DNA from: Escherichia phage JLBYU43
Sequence record: NC_105512.1
Length of the DNA: 64,000 bases
Strand: one strand, 5' to 3'
Shown here: positions 2,030 through 53,226 of the stretch, one piece after another
Position numbering within the stretch: position 1 is the first letter of the stretch
Layout: every line of letters starts with the position of its first letter
Program-made: the position numbers and the translations under genes
The notes under the pieces: model-generated
The model's input: the letters and a program-made list of their open reading frames with translations, nothing else
The model's database searches: none
What the model was told of the DNA's origin: nothing

Positions 2030-2102
2030 CGACCGCATGAGATTCGAACTCACATAAAAAGGATTTGCAATCCTTCGCCTAAGCCATTCAGCCAACAGTC
2101 GA
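2030..2102 (-). tRNA. tRNA-Cys (GCA)
   Basis: Acceptor CGACTGT/GCGGTCG with G-T wobbles, anticodon arm AAGGA-TTGCAAA-TCCTT, T-arm GTGAG-TTCGAAT-CTCAT, CCA at 2027-2029. Confidence 0.6.
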
Positions 2103-2285
2103 TTTATCTTGTTTTTCGAGATCTTCAAATTCTAGATTTATAGAATGTCCTATGGACCTAGCATAATAGCTATCTCCAGCATCAGTATCTCTTTCAATTT
2201 GGTACAACCTGTACGCAACGATCGTACCTCTTCTCCTTTTCAGGGAGATACTAATCCTTCTCAGTTAAAGTTGCATATTATCTGG

Positions 2286-2353
2286 CAGGGGTAAAGGTAT
2301 TCGAAACCTTTTCATGGGTTTTGGAGGCCCACTAGCAACCTATGCGTACCCCA
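2286..2353 (-). tRNA. tRNA-Trp (CCA), short D region
   Basis: Anticodon arm TGGGC-CTCCAAA-ACCCA and 3' end TACCCCTGCCA resemble the E. coli tRNA-Trp as recalled; T-arm AAGGT-TTCGAAT-ACCTT; only about 67 nt with a reduced D-arm. Confidence 0.5.
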
Positions 2354-2365
2354 ATTATTAATTGG

Positions 2366-20558: not shown

Positions 20559-22371
20559 ACTAATTGAAAATTGCAAAGGTTTACTTACTCTAACTGCTGA
20601 CAAAGACTTGCAGCATAATAATGCTAATAAACCTAGCGAGATGTTTCATACACAGAGGGACTTACTAGCTGGAGAAATCAACAAGTATTTAGTAGCACAA
20701 GAATTACCTAAACATTTATTAGACGCCCATAATCTAGGTAAAATACACATCCATGATATGGATTATAGAGCACAGGGGTACACTAACTGTTGTTTAGTAG
20801 ACCTAGGTGGTATGTTGAAAAATGGTACTAAAATTGGTAATGCGAATATTGAAACTCCTAAATCTATAACTACTGCATGTGCGATTACTGCTCAGATTAT
20901 TGCTCAGGTATCAGGCGCTCAGTATGGGGGTACTTCTATTGATCGTATTGATGAAGTTCTAGCTCCGTATGTTAGGAAGTCCTACAATAAACATCTGGGG
21001 CGTGGCCTACGTTGGCTTAAGGATGAGAGAAAAGCTGCTGTATATGCTACTGAACTTACTGAAAAAGAATGTTATGATGCATTCCAAGCTCTAGAGTATG
21101 AAACTAATTCATTATTTAACTCTAATGGGCAGACTCCTTTTATTACGCTGGGCTTTGGATTAGGGCAGGAGTGGGAGGAAAGGATGATTCAGAAAGCCAT
21201 CCTCCAAAATCGTATTAAAGGTTTAGGTGCTGCTGAGTCAACTCCTATCTTCCCTAAACTAGTATTCTCAGTTAAAGAAGGGTTAAATAAAAATCCAGGT
21301 GATCCTAACTATGATATAAAACAACTAGCACTTGAGTGTTCTGCTACTCGTATGTACCCAGACTATTTAAGTTACGAGAAAGTTGTAGCTGTTACTGGTG
21401 ATTTTAAAGCCCCTATGGGTTGTCGTAGTTTTTTATCTGCCATCCCCTCTGGAGAAATTGCAGGACGTAATAATTTAGGTGTTGTGTCTATCAATCTACC
21501 TATGGTTGCTGCTGAGGCAGATGGAGTTTTTGAAGATTTCTGGGATATTCTAGACAAATATGTGGATGAGGCTTTTGAAGCACATGACTTCTTCTTAAAC
21601 AGACTGAAGAAAGTTAAGGCTAAACAAGCCCCTATTCTTTATATGCACGGTGGTTTTGGTGTACGTTTAGAAGGAGAAGAATATGTATGGCCTATTTTTG
21701 AGGGTAGATCTTCTGTATCTCTTGGGTATATTGGGGTCTATGAGATGTGCCAAATAATGTTTAGTTTACCACAGACTCATAGGGACTGTATTGAATTTAC
21801 AGAGGAAGTTCTCACTCACCTAAAAAATCGTTGCGAAGTTAAAGCTACTGAAACTAATCTTGGGTTTAGCTTGTATGCTACTCCTAGTGAGTCTCTGTGT
21901 AATCGCTTTAATAAACTACTGGAGCGTAGATTCCCAGAGTATTCTTGGTTAGCAGATAAAGGTTATCTTACTAATAGCCATCATTTGGACGTGAGGGAGA
22001 AGGTAGCTCCAGATACTAAATTTGAGTATGAGGCTCATTTTACTAAAATAGCTAATGGTGGTAATATATCATTTGTGGAACTACCTCAAATGAAAAAGTT
22101 CCACAAAGCTCTTGAGTATGTGGTGGATAAGGGGCTAGAATGTAGTCATTATATTGGTGTTAATATACCAATTGATGAGTGCTTCAATTGTGGGTATATG
22201 GGTGAATCTATTGCTTCTGAGCGTGGGTTTGTATGTCCAAGTTGTGGGTCTGAAGAAATAGAGGTTACACGTAGGGTTTGCGGGTACCTGGGATCCCCTG
22301 GCAGTAGGCCTTTCAATTCTGGGAAACAAAAAGAAGTTCTTGGTAGAGTAAAACACTTAAATTTCAAGTAA
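20545..22371 (+). CDS. nrdD: anaerobic ribonucleoside-triphosphate reductase (class III)
   Basis: C-terminal zinc ribbon CFNCGYMG...CPSCGS followed by glycyl-radical motif RRVCGYLG. Confidence 0.85.
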   Translation: MTENELIENCKGLLTLTADKDLQHNNANKPSEMFHTQRDLLAGEINKYLVAQELPKHLLDAHNLGKIHIHDMDYRAQGYTNCCLVDLGGMLKNGTKIGNANIETPKSITTACAITAQIIAQVSGAQYGGTSIDRIDEVLAPYVRKSYNKHLGRGLRWLKDERKAAVYATELTEKECYDAFQALEYETNSLFNSNGQTPFITLGFGLGQEWEERMIQKAILQNRIKGLGAAESTPIFPKLVFSVKEGLNKNPGDPNYDIKQLALECSATRMYPDYLSYEKVVAVTGDFKAPMGCRSFLSAIPSGEIAGRNNLGVVSINLPMVAAEADGVFEDFWDILDKYVDEAFEAHDFFLNRLKKVKAKQAPILYMHGGFGVRLEGEEYVWPIFEGRSSVSLGYIGVYEMCQIMFSLPQTHRDCIEFTEEVLTHLKNRCEVKATETNLGFSLYATPSESLCNRFNKLLERRFPEYSWLADKGYLTNSHHLDVREKVAPDTKFEYEAHFTKIANGGNISFVELPQMKKFHKALEYVVDKGLECSHYIGVNIPIDECFNCGYMGESIASERGFVCPSCGSEEIEVTRRVCGYLGSPGSRPFNSGKQKEVLGRVKHLNFK

Positions 22372-22378
22372 GCTAATC

Positions 22379-22410
22379 AGCCAGGTTGCTAGTCGACCTG
22401 GCTTTTATTT
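22379..22410 (+). terminator. intrinsic terminator
   Basis: AGCCAGGT/ACCTGGCT 8-bp stem with 9-nt loop followed by TTTTATTTT, directly 3' of nrdD. Confidence 0.7.
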
Positions 22411-22413
22411 TAT

Positions 22414-22442
22414 TTGCTTTCAGCTAAAAATTTATGTATAAT
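22414..22442 (+). promoter_or_regulatory. sigma70-type promoter (TTGCTT-17-TATAAT)
   Basis: TTGCTT, TCAGCTAAAAATTTATG, TATAAT, then leader AGATTTATAAATTTAAGAGGAGGG. Confidence 0.65.
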
Positions 22443-22469
22443 AGATTTATAAATTTAAGAGGAGGGTAT

Positions 22470-22829
22470 ATGAAATTAAAACCATTTATTGTTGTATCTA
22501 AACTAGGGCATTATCACGTAGGAGTAGATACAATTCAGGAAGCTATTTTTGCTGCTACAGGTGATTACTCATTACTAGAAGGTATTGGGTATCCTACACT
22601 ACTAGGCGACTTCGTAGAGCAAGAACTAGATATTACTGTCTATAATCCTATATATGAAGAACCTGAATACTTAAAAGAGACTCTAGAATTTGTATATTGG
22701 AACCACTTACAAGTATTTAATGTTACCTCTAATGGCACAGAGGATTTCTCTTCTGTTATTAAATGCCATATTAAACAAGTTTACTACGATTATTTCTACG
22801 AGGATATTGGAGCGGAGCTAAAAGTATGA
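22470..22829 (+). CDS. hypothetical protein (119 aa)
   Basis: Start set at the ATG after GAGGAGGG RBS (MKLKPFIVV...); the ORF-track start lies inside the promoter. Confidence 0.55.
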   Translation: MKLKPFIVVSKLGHYHVGVDTIQEAIFAATGDYSLLEGIGYPTLLGDFVEQELDITVYNPIYEEPEYLKETLEFVYWNHLQVFNVTSNGTEDFSSVIKCHIKQVYYDYFYEDIGAELKV

Positions 22830-23029
22830 AAAACGTAAAACATCTTAAATATCGCTTAATTTACAACGGACGTATGGAAACAGAAGATCTAGCACAGCTA
22901 GCGATCAATTCAGATGAAGTTACAGTTCGTGCTTTGTCCATTGAGAAGCTGCGTGCTTCTTACGAAAATCGTATTATGGAATTAGAGGAGAAACTTTATG
23001 GCATTCTCGAGTCAGAAGCTACCAAGTGA
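22826..23029 (+). CDS. hypothetical protein (67 aa)
   Basis: ORF-track ORF, ATGA overlap with the upstream gene. Confidence 0.45.
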   Translation: MKNVKHLKYRLIYNGRMETEDLAQLAINSDEVTVRALSIEKLRASYENRIMELEEKLYGILESEATK

Positions 23030-23243
23030 AAATGTTAGTCTTATTGACCTGAGTAAACTCAATGTAGAGTTTCAGGGGGTTTTAATGAAGCACTGGGAAA
23101 CTGGCTATAAGGATGGTGTTGAATCCTGTGCTACTATGCTAGAATTTATTGCTAATACCTTAGTGGAGAAAGGCAATAAAGAATTAGCTGAGCTGTTAGA
23201 CAGTATTGGGCAAAACTTCAGAGAGCAGGTGAAAAATGCGTAG
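22998..23243 (+). CDS. hypothetical protein (81 aa)
   Basis: ORF-track ORF with GGAG RBS; overlaps both neighbours. Confidence 0.45.
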   Translation: MAFSSQKLPSENVSLIDLSKLNVEFQGVLMKHWETGYKDGVESCATMLEFIANTLVEKGNKELAELLDSIGQNFREQVKNA

Positions 23244-24012
23244 ACTAATCATTGTTAGTGGTGCTGGTTTAAGTGTTGATAGTGGTATCCGTGCATTCCG
23301 TACAGATACTGCTAGTGGTAAAGCAATGTGGGACGAGTACGATCTAGAAGAGGTGTGTGATATTCATGCTTTTCGTGGCCAGTTCTACTGGAAAACCCAC
23401 GAGTTCTACAACAAGCGTCGTCAGGAGTTGCGGACTGTTGAACCTAACATTGCGCACCTTCGTATTGGGGAATGGTTCCAGCGGTATCCAGAAGCGGTAC
23501 TAAACATTACTACTAACGTAGATGACTTGCTGGAAAGAGCTGGTGTGCCGAAAAGTGAGGTTCTCCACGTTCATGGCTATTTACCGGAAGTTCGTATTAA
23601 GGAATTGCCAGACCGAAAAGAGTACATCCTAGATGTGGGCTATACTGCTATTGATCCTGATGAATTTTATTGGGCAAAGCCTAACGTTGTATTCTTTGGT
23701 GAAGCAGCCCCCGAATATGCTCTGATGCATGCCACTTTTGATAGTCTTACAGCTAACGATATGGTTATCGTGGTTGGGTGTAGTAACCAAGTTATCAACT
23801 TCAACTGGGAACTTTTTCCTGCACTAGCTCGTGGTACTAAGATGATGGTTGTTAACCCAACTATTAACTACTTGGAACAATCCCTGTACGAAGAGCGTGG
23901 TGTTACTGTATGGCGTGCTGGGGCTGCCGAAGTTTTCGGTAACAAACACTTTATTGGCCAGGTAGAAGCTTTTATGGAAGGAACTATTTATGCCCCAGAA
24001 AAGCATGTGTGA
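23236..24012 (+). CDS. Sir2-family (sirtuin-like) NAD-binding protein
   Basis: N-terminal GAGLSVDSGIRAFR matches the sirtuin NAD-binding signature GAG(I/L)S..SGIP.FR; 258 aa is compatible with a single Sir2 domain. Confidence 0.6.
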   Translation: MRRLIIVSGAGLSVDSGIRAFRTDTASGKAMWDEYDLEEVCDIHAFRGQFYWKTHEFYNKRRQELRTVEPNIAHLRIGEWFQRYPEAVLNITTNVDDLLERAGVPKSEVLHVHGYLPEVRIKELPDRKEYILDVGYTAIDPDEFYWAKPNVVFFGEAAPEYALMHATFDSLTANDMVIVVGCSNQVINFNWELFPALARGTKMMVVNPTINYLEQSLYEERGVTVWRAGAAEVFGNKHFIGQVEAFMEGTIYAPEKHV

Positions 24013-24152
24013 TCTTTTAGTATGGCCGGACGGTAGTTGGTGCTACCGTTTCGAATTTGCTACCGATGACTTCTCATGGAAAAGTGATGATTTCTGCGTT
24101 ATCTAAGAGGATACAGCAGAATGGAAAGAGTTCCTTATTAAGGAGGGAGAGT

Positions 24153-24338
24153 ATGGTGAAGAAGATTTTTAAGGGTATCTGGAAGGGTCTATTATGGTTT
24201 GTCAACCTAATCGGTATGATTACCATTTATTCTCTGTTCCTATCTGTTATGTGGGGTAAAGGTGAACTGAAGGTTCCAGTTCCTTTTACTGATGAAGTTA
24301 AAGTCTGGACGTGGGATGCTACTGGTGGAAATAAGTAA
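24153..24338 (+). CDS. small membrane protein (61 aa)
   Basis: Start set at the ATG after AAGGAGGGAGAG RBS; hydrophobic segment GLLWFVNLIGMITIYSLFLSVMW. Confidence 0.45.
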   Translation: MVKKIFKGIWKGLLWFVNLIGMITIYSLFLSVMWGKGELKVPVPFTDEVKVWTWDATGGNK

Positions 24339-24528
24339 TACTCCTGTGATTTTCCTGGATATTGATGGGGTGCTCAATTCGAGCATCTCTCACCATCATG
24401 CTCGAGATAATGAAAAGCTGTTCTTTGGCAGTGATTGGGTTTATAAGCCATTACTCCAGGCTTTTCAGAACTTCCTCAAACCTTCTCCAATAATGATTGT
24501 TGGGGTATCTTCATGGTTTTCTGTATGA
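24316..24528 (+). CDS. HAD-like phosphatase, N-terminal part (ends at in-frame TGA)
   Basis: Contains FLDIDGVLN, resembling HAD motif I (DxDG); ORF ends at TGA 24526-24528, in the same frame as the next ORF. Confidence 0.4.
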   Translation: MLLVEISNTPVIFLDIDGVLNSSISHHHARDNEKLFFGSDWVYKPLLQAFQNFLKPSPIMIVGVSSWFSV

Positions 24529-24534
24529 AATGAA

Positions 24535-24831
24535 ATGGAGAACGTTCAGATTATGACCGGACTCGGTTTGATCGATCGTTTTCTTGGTACAACAGATTTT
24601 ACTGGAGGTGGTTTATCTAGGGGTAATTCTGTTTTACGTTTTGTCGAAAAATATAAGCTCAAACATTGGTGTGTGCTGGATGATGCCGGTGCTATGATGT
24701 ATCAGTATCCAACGGTTATAGTCAATGGTAGAACTGGGATAAATCTTCAAGATTTAAGAGCTGTTAGCTATATGTTAGAATTTAGTCCAGATCTTGAAAT
24801 GTGTAAAGCCCTACAGCAATTTAAGGTGTAA
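24535..24831 (+). CDS. HAD-like phosphatase, C-terminal part
   Basis: Begins 6 nt after the TGA in the same frame; KYKLKHWCVLDDAG resembles HAD motifs III/IV. Confidence 0.4.
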   Translation: MENVQIMTGLGLIDRFLGTTDFTGGGLSRGNSVLRFVEKYKLKHWCVLDDAGAMMYQYPTVIVNGRTGINLQDLRAVSYMLEFSPDLEMCKALQQFKV

Positions 24832-24833
24832 AT

Positions 24834-25262
24834 ATGTTTAATAATGTATTCTCTAAAGAAGCTAACCCAATTTTGGTTAACTTTTGGCGTACTCTCCCAG
24901 CTAGCCTGTATAATGAGGCTATTAACTCTTTGAAAATATGGTGTGAGAATAACGAAATCTCCTTTGCTTTTAAAGATGATATTGATGAGGCCCCTTGTAT
25001 TGGTTTAATTGTTCAGGTAGAGGAGGGTCTTGAAGAGATTGTCGGCTGGAAAGAGTTAGATGAAATGGGCTTAGTTTTTGCATTAAATTATAAGCTGTTT
25101 ATGCCTGCTAAGCATCGCCTCGTTGTTAACTATAAAACTAGTGAGTCTCCTGGTTTTCAGGTTAATGAACGTGAGGGCTGGTCATATTCGCCCGAGGAAG
25201 TAAATGAAGGGATTCAGAAACTTCGTCGTTTCGGGTATATGATCCCAGGTTTAACTGCTTAA
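24834..25262 (+). CDS. hypothetical protein, paralog A (142 aa)
   Basis: ORF-track ORF; C-terminal 80 aa align with CDS 25272-25667 (W.EL..MGL..A.N...F.P......ESP..QV......Y.......G...R.G...PGL). Confidence 0.55.
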   Translation: MFNNVFSKEANPILVNFWRTLPASLYNEAINSLKIWCENNEISFAFKDDIDEAPCIGLIVQVEEGLEEIVGWKELDEMGLVFALNYKLFMPAKHRLVVNYKTSESPGFQVNEREGWSYSPEEVNEGIQKLRRFGYMIPGLTA

Positions 25263-25271
25263 GGAGGCAGA

Positions 25272-25667
25272 ATGGAACAAGTATTTTGGCGTCAGATAGA
25301 TCCTAGTTTGGTAGAGCGTGCTGAGGGGCTCCTTGCACATTGGTTGGGGGTTGACAAGGTTAGTGTAACATTTCCGTTTACTTCTGTAACAGACCCTAGT
25401 GTAGGTGTATTTGTGGACGAAGATGAAGATGATGGTTGGGAAGCTGACTGGAATGAATTGTCCAGCATGGGCTTGATTGTTGCCATCAACTTCTCTATAT
25501 TCCATCCACGTGGCTTAGCCATTACACGTGACCCCGAAACTGGTGAATCCCCTTATCTTTTGCAAGTAGAAGATGATATTTGGGAGTACACCGAAGATAT
25601 TCTCGAAGAAGCTAAAGGTCAATTAAATCGCATTGGGATCTATGTTCCAGGCCTAAATGATGATTGA
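25272..25667 (+). CDS. hypothetical protein, paralog B (131 aa)
   Basis: ORF-track ORF with AAGGAGG RBS; paralogous to CDS 24834-25262. Confidence 0.55.
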   Translation: MEQVFWRQIDPSLVERAEGLLAHWLGVDKVSVTFPFTSVTDPSVGVFVDEDEDDGWEADWNELSSMGLIVAINFSIFHPRGLAITRDPETGESPYLLQVEDDIWEYTEDILEEAKGQLNRIGIYVPGLNDD

Positions 25668-25758
25668 TTTTCATTAGCCCAATCCTGATTACCGAGTCAT
25701 TTTGGCTCGGTTTTCTCTGTGCTCAAAGACACTGATAGCACCTTCGTAAAAAATTTTG

Positions 25759-32255: not shown

Positions 32256-33227
32256 ATGACTAATGTAAAAGACTTTATTAAACGTTGCCAAGAAGCGTAT
32301 TACCAGGGAATGTCTTTAATCTCTGACGAAGAATATGATCGTCTGATTAAAAGATTTCCGTTAGAAGAAGAGATCGGGCCTAAGGGCGATATTCCACATC
32401 TGTATCGTATGTATTCTTTACAGAAAGTTTACTTTGATCGTGGTGATAAAGCTCCGTTTACTACCCTTGATGATGTAGAAACTGATAAGTTAGATGGTTG
32501 TGCAATTTCTCTACTGTATATCGACGGAACGTTTGTTCAAGCATTAACTCGTGGTAATGGTATTCTAGGAAATGATGTCACAAGCAACGTTAGATTGCTG
32601 AACATCCCGAAAAAGATTTCCCAAAAAGTACCAACTCAAATCACTGGTGAAGTTCTTATCACTAAAGAAGTAGAAAACAAACGTAACTACGCTTCCGGTG
32701 CTATTAACTTAAAAGAAGAAGATGACTTCATCGAACGTATTGCAGAAGGTGGCTTGATTTTTGTAGCGTACGGTATTCAGTGTTCAGAGGATTCTGTAGG
32801 TATTACAGGTTCTTACTTAGATGATATGTCTTGGTTGGCTAACGAAGATTTTATCACTGTAATGAACATTAAAAACTACTTTAATTGGTATCCAACGGAT
32901 GGTAAAGTAGTTCGTATTAATGACAACAACAAATTCTTCCGTGAAGGTTGGACAAATAAACATCCTCGTGGTGCTTATGCAATCAAACAAGATGAAGAAG
33001 GCGAAATTACAACTCTTCTCAAAGTTGAATGGCAGGTAGGGGCTTCTGGTAAAGTAACTCCAGTTGGTTATTTCGAACCGGTAATTATTGATGATGCTAC
33101 AATTGTTAAGGCGACTCTTAATAACGTTGATTATATTAACTCTCTTGATCTAGAGATCGGTTGCCAGATTCGAGTAATTCGTGCTGGTGGTGTAATCCCG
33201 TGTATAGTAGAGCGAGTATACGATTAA
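32256..33227 (+). CDS. ligA: NAD-dependent DNA ligase, N-terminal half (adenylation and OB domains)
   Basis: SDEEYDRL (domain Ia), KLDGCAISLLY (KxDG adenylation lysine), TRGNGILGNDVTSNVR and IRAGGVIP match LigA motifs. Confidence 0.8.
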   Translation: MTNVKDFIKRCQEAYYQGMSLISDEEYDRLIKRFPLEEEIGPKGDIPHLYRMYSLQKVYFDRGDKAPFTTLDDVETDKLDGCAISLLYIDGTFVQALTRGNGILGNDVTSNVRLLNIPKKISQKVPTQITGEVLITKEVENKRNYASGAINLKEEDDFIERIAEGGLIFVAYGIQCSEDSVGITGSYLDDMSWLANEDFITVMNIKNYFNWYPTDGKVVRINDNNKFFREGWTNKHPRGAYAIKQDEEGEITTLLKVEWQVGASGKVTPVGYFEPVIIDDATIVKATLNNVDYINSLDLEIGCQIRVIRAGGVIPCIVERVYD

Positions 33228-33429: not shown

Positions 33430-34209
33430 ATGAAAATCGAAATTCCAACACAATGTCCCTCTTGTGGTTCTAAGCTAGATCTTGTCAACGGACAATTATT
33501 CTGTCGGAATAAGTCCAACTGTCCAGCGCAATCAAGTAAGTTAATTGAGAACTTCTGTACAAAAATGAAGTTAAAGGGCTTTGGTCCAAAAACTATTGAG
33601 AAGCTGGAGCTGACGAAGATTTCAGAACTATTTTACCTAACCGAAGAAGATTTGGTTAGAGCCGTGGGTAGCAAGGTTGCCGCTAAGTTAATTAGCGAAT
33701 TAAATACTAAAGTTCGCGGAGACATTGACTTTGGTTCAGTTCTCGGTTCTTTAGGAATCCCTCTAATCGGAGAGGTTGCAGCAAAGAAATTATCCCAAAA
33801 TTGCACTAGCTTCCACGATGTGAAGGCTGACGGCAAGGCTGGAGAAAATTATAAAGCCTGGCTAAATTCCCCACAAGGCAAGGATGTTATCGAATTACCG
33901 TGGAAATTTTCAACTGGTATTAGGGGCACTAAAGCTAATATCATCATTACAGATGAATTAGTTGCCCAGCCAAATGGAATCGCGGTATGTATTACCGGAT
34001 CTTTGCAAGATTTTGCAAATCGAACGGATGCAACAAACTATTTAGAAAGTCTAGGGTATACGGTTAAGAAATCAGTTACTAAAGACGTCAAATACCTAAT
34101 CTGTGAGGATGAATCAAAACGTTCTTCCTCATCTTATAAGAAAGCCGAAACGAATGGGATAGAAATCCTGTCGATTAAAGAACTATTGGAGAAAAATAAT
34201 AATGTCTAA
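33430..34209 (+). CDS. ligA: NAD-dependent DNA ligase, C-terminal half (Zn finger, HhH, BRCT)
   Basis: Zinc-finger CPSCGS...C..C, helix-hairpin-helix region and BRCT-like IAVCITGSL; ATG at 33430 preferred over the TTG at 33427. Confidence 0.75.
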   Translation: MKIEIPTQCPSCGSKLDLVNGQLFCRNKSNCPAQSSKLIENFCTKMKLKGFGPKTIEKLELTKISELFYLTEEDLVRAVGSKVAAKLISELNTKVRGDIDFGSVLGSLGIPLIGEVAAKKLSQNCTSFHDVKADGKAGENYKAWLNSPQGKDVIELPWKFSTGIRGTKANIIITDELVAQPNGIAVCITGSLQDFANRTDATNYLESLGYTVKKSVTKDVKYLICEDESKRSSSSYKKAETNGIEILSIKELLEKNNNV

Positions 34210-52400: not shown

Positions 52401-53226
52401 AAGGTACACCATCAGTACCTGAAATAAATCCGGTAAGAACTGTTTCACCTACTGCTATACTAGGAAAACCTGTAGCCGTTTCGTATATTCTTAGAAACCC
52501 CAGAAAATTGGAAGGATTACCAGAAATATCCGGACAATCTCTTGGGGATTCCCCAAGACCTATAGAGGCTTTCATACCAGAAGCTACATTTTCAGCTTTA
52601 GTAGCAGATGCCGCCGCATTAGTTTCTGATGTTTTAGCATTGGTTTCTGATTCTTTAGCAGCACTAGCACTGTTAGCAGCAGCAGTTTTACTACTATTAG
52701 CGTTAGTTTCAGAGGTTTTGGCCGCAGAAGCAGATGCTGCAGCATTAGTTTCTGAAGTTTTAGCAGCTGATGCAGAAGCAGCCGCAGCAGTTTTGCTACT
52801 ATTAGCATTGGTCTCAGAAGTTTTAGCCGCTGTTTCACTAGCTTTTGCGTTAGTTTCTGAAGTTTTTGCAGCCGTCTCACTAGCTTTTGCATTGGTCTCA
52901 GAAGTCTTAGCAGCTTTAGCACTATTAGCAGAAGCAGTAGCAGAAGAAGCAGACTGAGTTGCAGATTGCTGGGAAGATGCCGCAGAAATTTCTGCTTCAT
53001 TTTCAGAATCTTTGGCATTTAGTTCCGACTGTTTAGCATTAATCTCTGATTGTTTGGCTGCTGCAGCAGATGCTTTAGAGGACTCTATAGCAGAGGTTAG
53101 CTCCGCAGCAGTAATAGAGCTAATTGTATTTCCCAGAACTATAGTATATTTAGGATACTTACTTGCAGTTACACTATTTTGGTCCATAGTGACCATTTGC
53201 TGTAGAATTATTTTAGTTATAGCCAT
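49477..53226 (-). CDS. ltf: L-shaped tail fibre protein with C-terminal intramolecular chaperone domain
   Basis: 1249 aa; N-terminal low-complexity repeat array (SETNAKASETAAKT...), long beta-rich body, C-terminal S74-type chaperone region (SDRDLKDNIEEIQNATESLRKMKGYTYTLK...AGVIAQEV). Confidence 0.8.
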   Translation of the reverse strand: MAITKIILQQMVTMDQNSVTASKYPKYTIVLGNTISSITAAELTSAIESSKASAAAAKQSEINAKQSELNAKDSENEAEISAASSQQSATQSASSATASANSAKAAKTSETNAKASETAAKTSETNAKASETAAKTSETNANSSKTAAAASASAAKTSETNAAASASAAKTSETNANSSKTAAANSASAAKESETNAKTSETNAAASATKAENVASGMKASIGLGESPRDCPDISGNPSNFLGFLRIYETATGFPSIAVGETVLTGFISGTDGVPSFAGLFVGSSTRAIYSYRWRPESGPLWTKNARIDDVNRLVQLSSETQLLNPGNNAKIVITSGKLWGAYDIENRAYIPLAVGQGGTGGRSAAEARNNLQINRFQRSSDTRTIILSTDVQKDGCYLQVDADGQWGAFNPKASRWQPLAVAQGGTGGVTTDDARTNLGLGRSSSPTFAHLQLLVENDSAQASSGILSQFLRDTSGVQRARSRIYSEIRGDNKAWLTLHLQSDANTNKYAGLSIDGNFQINGNFIGNAISLSDVATSKVNLQVNRFVQATGETHVVNHAGTAQIFITDNKNWGAYDKELKRLIALPITQGGTGGLSISEAKTNLQIPSIGGGEWLTLNAPAGVEEGKYYPVIIDLAYSSLYASGAFIDVKTRSSIGSDPMNCCSFNGFIRCGGWSDSKDGGYGYFNNYARNEIAMKCILSSSKDAERYVAIYIEARGFPVQLRVPAFCEVTVPTSNFTYKNTTYAWGTANPATDSTDVLTMFDFSLNRIGFYQATTEGNYYIGNGERIVLSNGMNVGDELSLYAPKISFSGTIGAGNGVIADGISVSNATFYSRYRVGNTVYGAEFRASENAGQVVVRDPTGTNHQFFNFNKEGTFSAPSGILSSTGVDWNTQHNTVNKFYGIAGQVNTPENNVVYGGVHVGFSGNYATQFAGRNSKFWARSIEGGTIGTWNRLITDKFADFGVPVSIAKAGEALSIRLTGTDTSQVGYLACRTDSARLWYVGKGGAAKDVILHNDMNGSTLTVSDDITLRTPSYNGGIFADGSGISVRRSNGREFKYENTMTAAKNASILLWGSTTRPSVVECKLPDGYLFYAQQSTDGSRVFNVNGSVEVTNITQSSDRDLKDNIEEIQNATESLRKMKGYTYTLKKNGMPYAGVIAQEVMEALPEAVSGFTKYTDLEGPTLTGEQLVGEERFYSVDYAAITGLLVQAGRESDSRITALESEVSDLKKQIADLTLVVNSLLANKAQ

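What the first reader, a model, noticed from the sequence alone, without database searches (positions are those of the whole stretch)
24316..24831. HAD-like phosphatase frame interrupted by a single in-frame TGA
ORF 24316-24528 carries a HAD motif I-like FLDIDGVLN and ends at TGA 24526-24528. The next ORF starts 6 nt later at ATG 24535 in the same frame and carries a motif III/IV-like KYKLKHWCVLDD. Read through the TGA, the two would form one HAD-fold protein of about 170 aa. This could be a recent nonsense mutation, a sequencing error, a deliberately split enzyme or a stop-codon readthrough site.
Basis: seen in the sequence. Interest (0 to 1): 0.55.

Follow-up and report, generated by a model that had tools for sequence, protein, structure and literature searches.

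The report
Private nonsense mutation splits phage phosphatase
A small accessory phosphatase-like gene of a T5-like phage (Escherichia phage JLBYU43) is cut in two by a single C-to-T change that turned an arginine codon into a TGA stop; no related phage checked has this stop, so it is an ordinary recent gene knock-out (or a base-call error), not a recoding signal or a designed split enzyme.

Summary
Window 24316-24831 is one reading frame with a single in-frame TGA at 24526-24528. The two halves match one family colinearly (Pfam HAD_SAK_2, fused E=4e-18). The gene is the orthologue of T5.105, which is 168 aa and intact in T5.

All 31 full-length relatives examined (29 distinct sequences) carry Arg (CGA/AGG/AGA) or Lys at that codon and have no stop. 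A 36-mer differing only by C instead of T matches 100 phage records; the TGA version matches none.

The family is under strong purifying selection (median dN/dS 0.059). No new ribosome-binding site, suppressor tRNA, SECIS or stop-specific structure accompanies the TGA. An intact orthologue models as one compact HAD-fold domain (pLDDT 94.6), with the stop in a variable loop between motif II and motifs III/IV.

The best reading is a recent, lineage-private CGA→TGA loss-of-function mutation in a dispensable accessory gene. Other T5-like phages have lost the gene independently. A sequencing error cannot be excluded.

New here: the small gene 422 nt upstream carries a second private nonsense mutation (TAT→TAA, 24104-24106). 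Interest is low.

The parts
24316..24831 (+). Whole disrupted gene: orthologue of T5.105, a stand-alone HAD_SAK_2 (PF18143) capless HAD-fold phosphatase-like protein. ATG at 24316; the start conserved in relatives is 24325 (GTG here, ATG in T5).
   Evidence: T5.105 aligns over 1-168 at 92.9% identity with one stop in the alignment.
24316..24528 (+). N-terminal fragment ORF (70 aa from ATG 24316; annotated in GenBank as the 78-aa UGO55794.1 from ATG 24292). Carries motif I FLDIDGVLN (24352-24378) and motif II SSWF (24508-24519).
   Evidence: (PF18143 positions 1-54).
24526..24528 (+). Premature TGA stop, derived from CGA (Arg) by one C-to-T transition at 24526. Private to this phage.
   Evidence: (CGA in the 5 closest relatives; AGG/AGA/AAA in the others), 15, 17 with positive control 69, and 24.
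24535..24831 (+). C-terminal fragment ORF (98 aa, GenBank UGO55688.1). Carries the invariant GGGLSRG (24604-24624) and motif IV VLDDAG (24673-24690). Both candidate starts, ATG 24535 and ATG 24553, are ordinary internal Met codons in intact relatives.
   Evidence: (PF18143 positions 70-138, 22.8 bits, below the cut-off on its own).
24403..24405 (+). Private missense change P30R (CCA to CGA). Pro in all 29 aligned nucleotide relatives at this column; Ser in P0019.
24537..24584 (+). Predicted RNA hairpin starting 11 nt after the UGA (dG -19.8 kcal/mol, z -2.7). It buries GGAG 24537-24540 and AUG 24553. The sequence is identical in relative L005, which has CGA, so the hairpin is not stop-specific.
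   Evidence: no Rfam family matches.
23990..24172 (+). Upstream 60-aa gene (phrog_5116, AKFV33 orf106 type) with a second private nonsense mutation: TAT (Tyr39) to TAA at 24104-24106, leaving a 38-aa ORF.
   Evidence: with positive control 70, 35, 37.
22379..25711 (+). Transcription unit bracketed by terminator-like hairpins (22379-22403 and 25691-25711). Contents: T5.100/101-like genes, orf81, Sir2-like (23236-24012), small gene*, 61-aa membrane protein (24153-24338), HAD*, and two DUF7415 paralogues (24834-25262, 25272-25667).
   Evidence: (T5 annotation).

Best explanation
The gene is the JLBYU43 orthologue of T5.105, a stand-alone capless HAD-fold (HAD_SAK_2) phosphatase-like accessory protein. 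It was recently inactivated by a single C-to-T transition (CGA Arg to TGA) in the loop between motif II and the motif III/IV half. SHOWN: the ancestral codon was a sense codon. The stop is private to this genome. The family is otherwise under strong purifying selection. Nothing around the stop has changed to accommodate it. INFERRED: translation ends after 67-70 residues, giving a fragment with the nucleophile motif (DxD) and motif II but without the Arg and Asp-Asp residues needed to complete a HAD active site, so activity is lost. Two things are possible but incidental: a few per cent of full-length protein (Trp at the stop) from the natural leakiness of UGA in E. coli, and some re-initiation at AUG 24535. 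The gene is dispensable for plaque growth, as shown by independent truncations or deletions in other T5-like phages.
For: (1) In-frame TGA; both halves match PF18143 and phrog_1818 colinearly. (2) 31/31 full-length T5-like loci (29 distinct sequences) have CGA/AGG/AGA/AAA there and no in-frame stop. The closest ones differ at that codon only by C versus T. (3) The TGA 36-mer gives 0 hits in 50,697 phage records, while the same 36-mer with CGA gives 100 records at >=99%. The TGA 20-mer is absent from IMG/VR, and the three metagenome hits are chance matches. (4) The exact fragment proteins exist only in Escherichia phage JLBYU43, on 1 contig each. (5) Median pairwise dN/dS among relatives is 0.059, and window versus relatives is 0.05-0.10, so the stop post-dates almost all divergence. 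Only 3 private changes occur in the gene: R71*, P30R and one silent. (6) The intact orthologue models as one domain (pLDDT 94.6, pTM 0.91) with residue 68 in a loop. The top PDB matches are all HAD phosphatases, such as MDP-1, KdsC and PNKP. Invariant residues lie on both sides of the stop. (7) Independent losses elsewhere: SP_Thor 117 aa, PMBT26 121 aa, SHSML-45 with the C half only, Shivani and DT57C partial. (8) T5 annotates the orthologue as one 168-aa CDS.
Against: Only one genome record carries the allele and no independent read-based assembly of it was found, so a base-call error cannot be told apart from a real mutation. UGA is the leakiest stop in E. coli: about 2% readthrough at 37 C and 4% at 25 C in K-12 reporters (PMC10570021). 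An in-frame AUG lies 6 nt downstream. So complete loss of function is inferred, not shown. A second private nonsense mutation 422 nt upstream hints that more than random decay may be at work.
Confidence: 0.74

Rival explanations
1. Sequencing, assembly or consensus-calling error: the real phage has CGA (and TAT upstream), and the gene is intact.
For: The allele exists in one deposited record only and has no independent Logan/ENA assembly. Two private stop-creating substitutions lie within 422 nt. All 100 and 140 records with otherwise identical flanks carry the sense codons.
Against: About 63 other genes shared with T5 across the 64-kb window are uninterrupted, so the assembly is not generally error-prone. 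Both changes are clean substitutions, not homopolymer indels. Other private substitutions nearby are silent or conservative, as expected for real variation. Independent natural truncations of this gene exist in other phages.
Confidence: 0.16
2. Functional split enzyme: the N fragment, and a C fragment re-initiated at AUG 24535 (or AUG 24553), assemble non-covalently into an active HAD domain.
For: An in-frame AUG lies 6 nt after the stop, which would allow termination-reinitiation. The break falls in a variable, indel-tolerant surface loop between secondary-structure elements. T5-like phages do have one genuine split enzyme, the NAD-dependent ligase ligA/ligB.
Against: No relative is split at this site. 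There is no Shine-Dalgarno sequence before AUG 24535. GGAG 24537-40 and AUG 24553 are predicted to sit inside a hairpin. Both AUGs are pre-existing internal Met codons, and the flanks are identical to those of intact relatives, so there has been no adaptation to a split state. The HAD core sheet would have to form across two chains.
Confidence: 0.04
3. Programmed recoding of the UGA: regulated readthrough, selenocysteine, or phage-wide stop-codon reassignment.
For: UGA followed by A is a comparatively weak terminator (own knowledge). A stable hairpin starts 11 nt downstream. Basal UGA readthrough in E. coli K-12 is a few per cent.
Against: The stop is not conserved in any relative. The hairpin is identical in phages with CGA. 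There is no SECIS or other Rfam match. The site is a variable Arg/Lys loop position, not a catalytic one. There is no opal, ochre or amber suppressor tRNA among the 11 tRNAs in the window or the 21-29 tRNAs of four related clusters, and no tRNA-Trp in the expected slot. No other gene in the window has an in-frame stop except a TAA, which would need a different suppressor.
Confidence: 0.03
4. Selected inactivation: loss of the HAD gene and its small upstream neighbour was favoured in this lineage. Possible reasons are that the products are costly on, or sensed by, the isolation host.
For: Two private nonsense mutations sit in adjacent genes of one operon, while none occurs in about 63 other genes. 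2 of 10 private coding substitutions are nonsense, against 4.5% expected for random mutation (P=0.07 even without purifying selection). The gene has been lost repeatedly in other T5-like phages.
Against: The numbers are tiny. No defence system or phenotype is linked to these genes in the literature searched. Relaxed selection in the laboratory, or errors, would give the same pattern.
Confidence: 0.1

Closest known systems
[quoted passage not shown]
   Same: Same locus, between the Sir2-like gene and the DUF7415 pair. 92.9% amino-acid identity to T5.105 over 168 residues. Same invariant motifs: FLDIDGVLN, SSWF, GGxxRG, VxDDxG.
   Different: Interrupted at codon 68 (71 from ATG 24316) by TGA. 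Carries a private P-to-R change. The biochemical function of the family is untested; the name 'RNA repair' comes from domain context in other proteins.
Capless (C0) HAD phosphatases with solved structures: MDP-1 (1u7p, 2wm8), KdsC/YrbI (2r8e, 3hyc), and the phosphatase domains of T4 and mammalian PNKP (2ia5, 1yj5)
   Same: Best structural matches of the intact orthologue model (Foldseek probability up to 1.00, TM 0.54-0.57). DxD nucleophile motif and acidic motif IV.
   Different: 12-21% sequence identity only, and E-values are marginal (1e-3 and above). The family has Arg in a GGGxxRG loop where classical HADs have the motif III Lys. The substrate is unknown.
Programmed UGA readthrough (e.g. 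the Qbeta coat/A1 extension) and phage stop-codon recoding (Borges et al. 2022, cited within PMC13092985)
   Same: An in-frame UGA followed by more coding sequence in the same frame.
   Different: In those systems the stop is conserved, and in recoded phages it recurs in many genes together with suppressor tRNAs. Here it is private to one genome, occurs in one gene and has no suppressor tRNA.
Genuinely split enzyme of T5-like phages: NAD-dependent DNA ligase subunits A and B (T5.116/T5.117)
   Same: One enzyme encoded as two adjacent ORFs in the same genome (window 32256-33224 and 33430-34206).
   Different: The ligase split is conserved between T5 and this phage, with an intergenic spacer of about 200 nt that carries its own promoters in T5. 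The HAD split is a one-base change found in one genome only.

Membership tests
Pfam PF18143 HAD_SAK_2 / T5.105 orthologue group | Sequence match above the Pfam gathering score across the whole domain | tested here: met
   Fused frame: 66.5 bits against a 27.5 cut-off, profile positions 1-138 of 139. N half alone 35.7 bits; C half alone 22.8 bits, below the cut-off. All 22 database homologues carry PF18143.
Pfam PF18143 HAD_SAK_2 / T5.105 orthologue group | Uninterrupted reading frame encoding the whole domain | tested here: not met
   TGA at 24526-24528. So this is a disrupted (pseudogene-like) member, not an intact one.
HAD superfamily phosphatase | Motif I DxDx(T/V) nucleophile, motif II S/T, a motif III basic residue and motif IV acidic pair, all conserved | tested here: met
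   Invariant in 18 sequences: F-L-D-I-D-G-V-L-N, S-W-F (preceded by a nearly invariant S), G-G-x-x-R-G and V-x-D-D-x-G. The basic residue is Arg rather than the classical Lys.
HAD superfamily phosphatase | Rossmannoid HAD fold | tested here: met
   Tested on the intact 92%-identical orthologue P0019, not on the window protein itself: pLDDT 94.6, pTM 0.91. The top 19 Foldseek PDB matches are all HAD-fold proteins, but with modest E-values of 1e-3 or weaker.
HAD superfamily phosphatase | Mg-dependent phosphatase activity | not testable with these tools
   No biochemical data were found for T5.105 or its family.
Programmed stop-codon readthrough site | Stop codon conserved among relatives that keep the downstream frame | tested here: not met
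   0 of 31 relatives and 0 of 100 records with identical flanks have the stop.
Programmed stop-codon readthrough site | Stimulatory element specific to the stop-containing allele | tested here: not met
   The hairpin at 24537-24584 is identical in L005, which has CGA.
Selenocysteine (UGA/SECIS) recoding | SECIS element downstream, and Sec/Cys at a catalytic position in homologues | tested here: not met
   No Rfam match at E<=1. Homologues have Arg/Lys in a variable loop.
Stop-codon-recoded phage genome | Many genes with the same in-frame stop, plus a suppressor tRNA | tested here: not met
   Only this gene has an in-frame TGA among about 65 genes shared with T5. No tRNA with a UCA, UUA or CUA anticodon. 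The rest of JLBYU43's own tRNA cluster lies outside the window and was checked only in relatives.
Naturally split enzyme (like T5 ligA/ligB) | Split conserved in relatives, with independent translation signals for the second part | tested here: not met
   Single ORF in T5, SP76 and AKFV33. No SD before AUG 24535, and the flanks are unchanged from intact alleles.

The most novel reading that the evidence does not exclude
The two private nonsense mutations in adjacent genes of the Sir2-like operon (TAA at 24104 in the 60-aa gene, TGA at 24526 in the HAD gene) were selected together. On this reading, the small protein and the HAD phosphatase act as a functional pair, and losing them helps this phage on its host, for example by removing a trigger sensed by a bacterial defence system. 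That would give these two orphan T5 genes a first phenotype.
Probability: 0.08. Interest if true: 0.5.

Novelty: already known. Interest (0 to 1): 0.12.

Why it matters
It matters little beyond annotation hygiene. The two ORFs (UGO55794.1 and UGO55688.1) should be annotated as one disrupted T5.105-type gene. The C-terminal fragments of this family have seeded a spurious PHROG (phrog_18062) that carries a wrong 'Sir2 deacetylase' label. The case does show that this strongly conserved accessory gene (dN/dS about 0.06) is nevertheless dispensable and is repeatedly lost in cultured T5-like phages, which is useful when choosing genes to delete or study. The paired knock-out with its upstream neighbour is a weak hint of a functional link.

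Tried and rejected
- Exact 20-mer scan for the TGA allele. IMG/VR gave none. JGI metagenomes gave three hits, which proved to be chance 20-21-mers with no flanking similarity.
The 92%-identical intact orthologue P0019 was modelled instead.
- A profile search of PDB sequences gave nothing significant: best E=0.58 for ferritin, and the HAD protein 2p9j at E=0.62. Only the fold comparison shows the HAD relationship.
- SECIS or readthrough element: Rfam found nothing, and the hairpin is not allele-specific.
- Suppressor tRNA: none in the window or in four related tRNA clusters. A tRNA-Trp able to read UGA (4-bp anticodon stem idea, PMC13092985) was considered, but the window has no tRNA-Trp in the expected slot.
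- I tried to fetch JLBYU43's own DNA upstream of the window through a shared protein. Only relatives were returned.
- Literature: nothing on JLBYU43, on the function of T5.105 or on defence-escape mutations in these genes. The paper I recalled as the source of the 'Swiss Army Knife' HAD name (Burroughs and Aravind 2016) is not held under the id I tried.
- A whole-window scan for other same-frame ORF pairs split by one stop found only ordinary neighbouring genes.

Full report
**What is there**

The window's plus strand at 24316-24831 is a single frame of 172 codons with one internal stop, TGA at 24526-24528. The upstream piece is 70 aa from ATG 24316. The start conserved in relatives corresponds to GTG 24325. 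This piece contains FLDIDGVLN (24352-24378) and SSWF (24508-24519). After six bases, ATG 24535 opens a 98-aa ORF with GGGLSRG (24604-24624) and VLDDAG (24673-24690).

**The halves are one gene**

- Pfam HAD_SAK_2 (PF18143) aligns the N piece to profile positions 1-54 and the C piece to 70-138. The fused sequence aligns to 1-138 at E=4.3e-18, 66.5 bits against a cut-off of 27.5.
- phrog_1818 gives the same colinear picture.
- tblastn of T5.105 (168 aa) covers window 24325-24828 end to end at 92.9% identity, with exactly one stop in the alignment.
- T5, SP76 and AKFV33 each annotate a single 168-aa CDS here.

**Identity of the window**

Exact-sequence look-up places both fragments in Escherichia phage JLBYU43 (111,814 bp). 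There they are annotated separately as 'putative RNA repair protein': UGO55794.1 (78 aa) and UGO55688.1 (98 aa). Each is seen on a single contig and only in NCBI-derived sources. No paper mentions the phage.

**The stop is private and derived**

- In 31 full-length T5-like loci (29 distinct sequences) the codon is CGA, AGG or AGA (Arg), or AAA (Lys). None has any in-frame stop.
- The closest relatives read GTA CGA AAT GAA ATG where the window reads GTA TGA AAT GAA ATG. That is a single C-to-T transition with no other local change.
- A 36-mer centred on the TGA finds nothing in 50,697 phage records. The same 36-mer with C finds 100 records at 99% identity or better.
- The TGA 20-mer is absent from IMG/VR. 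Its three metagenome matches are chance 20-mers.

**Selection**

Pairwise dN/dS among the relatives has a median of 0.059 over 404 pairs. The window's copy against relatives gives 0.05-0.10. Nearly all of its divergence therefore accrued under purifying selection, and the stop is recent. Only three substitutions in the gene are private to the window: the stop, P30R (24403-24405) and one silent change.

**Fold**

It forms one compact domain (pLDDT 94.6, pTM 0.91). Residue 68, the stop site, lies in the loop between strand 57-60 (motif II) and helix 70-79. Foldseek against the PDB returns HAD-superfamily phosphatases as all the leading hits: MDP-1, AQ2171, KdsC/YrbI, and the PNKP phosphatase domains. 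Probability reaches 1.00 and TM 0.54-0.57, but E-values are only about 1e-3.

Invariant residues sit on both sides of the stop: FLDIDGVLN and SWF before it, GGxxRG and VxDDxG after it. Neither fragment can hold a complete HAD active site. This last step follows from established HAD enzymology rather than from a test here.

**Recoding and split-enzyme rivals**

- *Suppressor tRNA.* No tRNA with an opal, ochre or amber suppressor anticodon occurs among the 11 tRNAs of the window or the 21-29 tRNAs in four related clusters. The window also lacks a tRNA-Trp in the slot where T5 and some relatives have one.
- *RNA elements.* No Rfam family, SECIS included, matches. A hairpin (24537-24584, dG -19.8, z -2.7) begins 11 nt after the UGA. 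It is base-for-base identical in L005, which has CGA.
- *Independent translation of the C half.* The hairpin would bury GGAG 24537-40 and AUG 24553. AUG 24535 has no Shine-Dalgarno sequence. Both AUGs are ordinary internal Met codons in the intact genes.
- *Comparison with a real split.* The genuinely split T5 enzyme, ligase ligA/ligB, is split in both T5 and this phage and has its own promoters in T5.
- *Leakiness.* Basal UGA leakiness in E. coli K-12 reporters is about 2% at 37 C and 4% at 25 C (PMC10570021). A trace of full-length protein with Trp at a variable loop position is therefore plausible, but it would be incidental.

**Context and a second lesion**

The gene lies in a unit bracketed by terminator-like hairpins at 22379-22403 and 25691-25711. 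These match the positions annotated in T5. The unit runs in this order:

- a Sir2-family gene (PF02146)
- a 60-aa gene (phrog_5116)
- a 61-aa membrane protein (phrog_11166)
- the HAD gene
- two DUF7415 paralogues

Comparing 76 T5 proteins with the window showed only one other stop inside an alignment. Follow-up showed that the 60-aa gene (23990-24172) carries TAA at 24104-24106 where five close relatives have TAT (Tyr39). The TAA 36-mer has no match in the phage collection, whereas the TAT version matches 140 records.

Thus two adjacent accessory genes each carry a private nonsense mutation 422 nt apart, while about 63 other shared genes are intact. Of 10 private coding substitutions in the 3.7 kb covered by relatives, 2 are nonsense, 4 missense and 4 silent. 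Random mutation would give 4.5% nonsense, so P(two or more of 10) is 0.07 before allowing for purifying selection. This is suggestive at most. It fits relaxed or loss-favouring selection on this module in this lineage, or errors in the record.

**Recurrent loss elsewhere**

- SP_Thor encodes a 117-aa version that ends just before WCVLDD.
- PMBT26 encodes a 121-aa version with an altered end.
- SHSML-45 (L031) keeps only the C-terminal 98 aa behind unrelated sequence.
- Shivani matches only query positions 199-516, and DT57C only the last 140 nt.

These C-terminal remnants explain phrog_18062, a 92-residue family labelled 'Sir2 (NAD-dependent deacetylase)'. That label is a propagated mis-annotation, because the protein has no SIR2 domain.

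**Verdict**

This is an ordinary, recent, lineage-private nonsense mutation (CGA to TGA) that knocks out a conserved but dispensable HAD-fold accessory gene of a T5-like phage. A base-call error in the single available record is the only serious alternative. Designed splitting and programmed recoding each fail their defining tests. Novelty: already known kind. Interest: low. The only mildly unexpected item is the companion nonsense mutation in the neighbouring small gene.

Noticed in passing
window 23990-24172 (stop at 24104-24106): A second private nonsense mutation, TAT (Tyr39) to TAA, truncates the 60-aa phrog_5116 gene to 38 aa. It lies 422 nt upstream of the TGA in the same operon. It is absent from the 140 phage records that carry the otherwise identical 36-mer.
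   Followed up: yes
window 24535-24831; phrog_18062; RefSeq records such as NC_017969 orf108: The HAD protein and its C-terminal remnants are widely labelled 'Sir2 (NAD-dependent deacetylase)' in RefSeq and PHROGs, although they have no SIR2 domain. The label seems to have leaked from the true Sir2-like gene two or three genes upstream (23236-24012).
   Followed up: partly
window about 24690 (inside the HAD gene): There is a mosaic junction. The 5' two-thirds of the gene is 92-100% identical to Epseptimavirus-type alleles (L004/L005). The last ~140 nt is 98-100% identical to T5 but only 82-85% identical to those alleles. This implies a recombination breakpoint within the gene.
   Followed up: partly
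window 24537-24584: A stable predicted hairpin lies inside the coding sequence (dG -19.8 kcal/mol, z -2.7), identical in a relative. Its role, if any, is unknown, and covariation was not tested.
   Followed up: partly
L031 (SHSML-45); P0028 (SP_Thor); P0017 (PMBT26); hits H99 (Shivani) and H100 (DT57C): Other T5-like phages have truncated, N-terminally replaced or almost deleted copies of the same gene, indicating repeated independent loss. The DNA-level causes in SP_Thor and PMBT26 were not examined.
   Followed up: partly
window 24834-25262 and 25272-25667: Two tandem paralogous genes (T5.106/T5.107 types) each contain two DUF7415 repeats. The T5 annotation notes that homologues of T5.105 and T5.107 both occur in Aeromonas phage Aeh1 (ORF303c, ORF299c), hinting at a conserved neighbourhood.
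   Followed up: no
window 2101-2363 (minus strand): The slot between tRNA-Glu and tRNA-Cys holds tRNA-Phe and/or tRNA-Trp in T5 and several relatives. It has no detectable tRNA in this phage by ARAGORN or the Rfam tRNA model.
   Followed up: partly
window 20560-22368 and 23236-23991: nrdD (57% aa identity to T5) and the Sir2-like gene (60%) are far more divergent from T5 than the flanking genes (nrdA, nrdB and phoH at 98-99%). This suggests allelic replacement by recombination.
   Followed up: no
window 52591-53226 (minus strand): Only the first ~205 residues of the T5 L-shaped tail fibre (pb1, 1396 aa) have a counterpart. The rest of the fibre gene differs, consistent with a different O-antigen specificity.
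   Followed up: no
L047 9660-9735: In one related assembly (Logan DRR832035) the phage tRNA-Cys is called with anticodon ACA, instead of the GCA seen in the other relatives and in the window.
   Followed up: no
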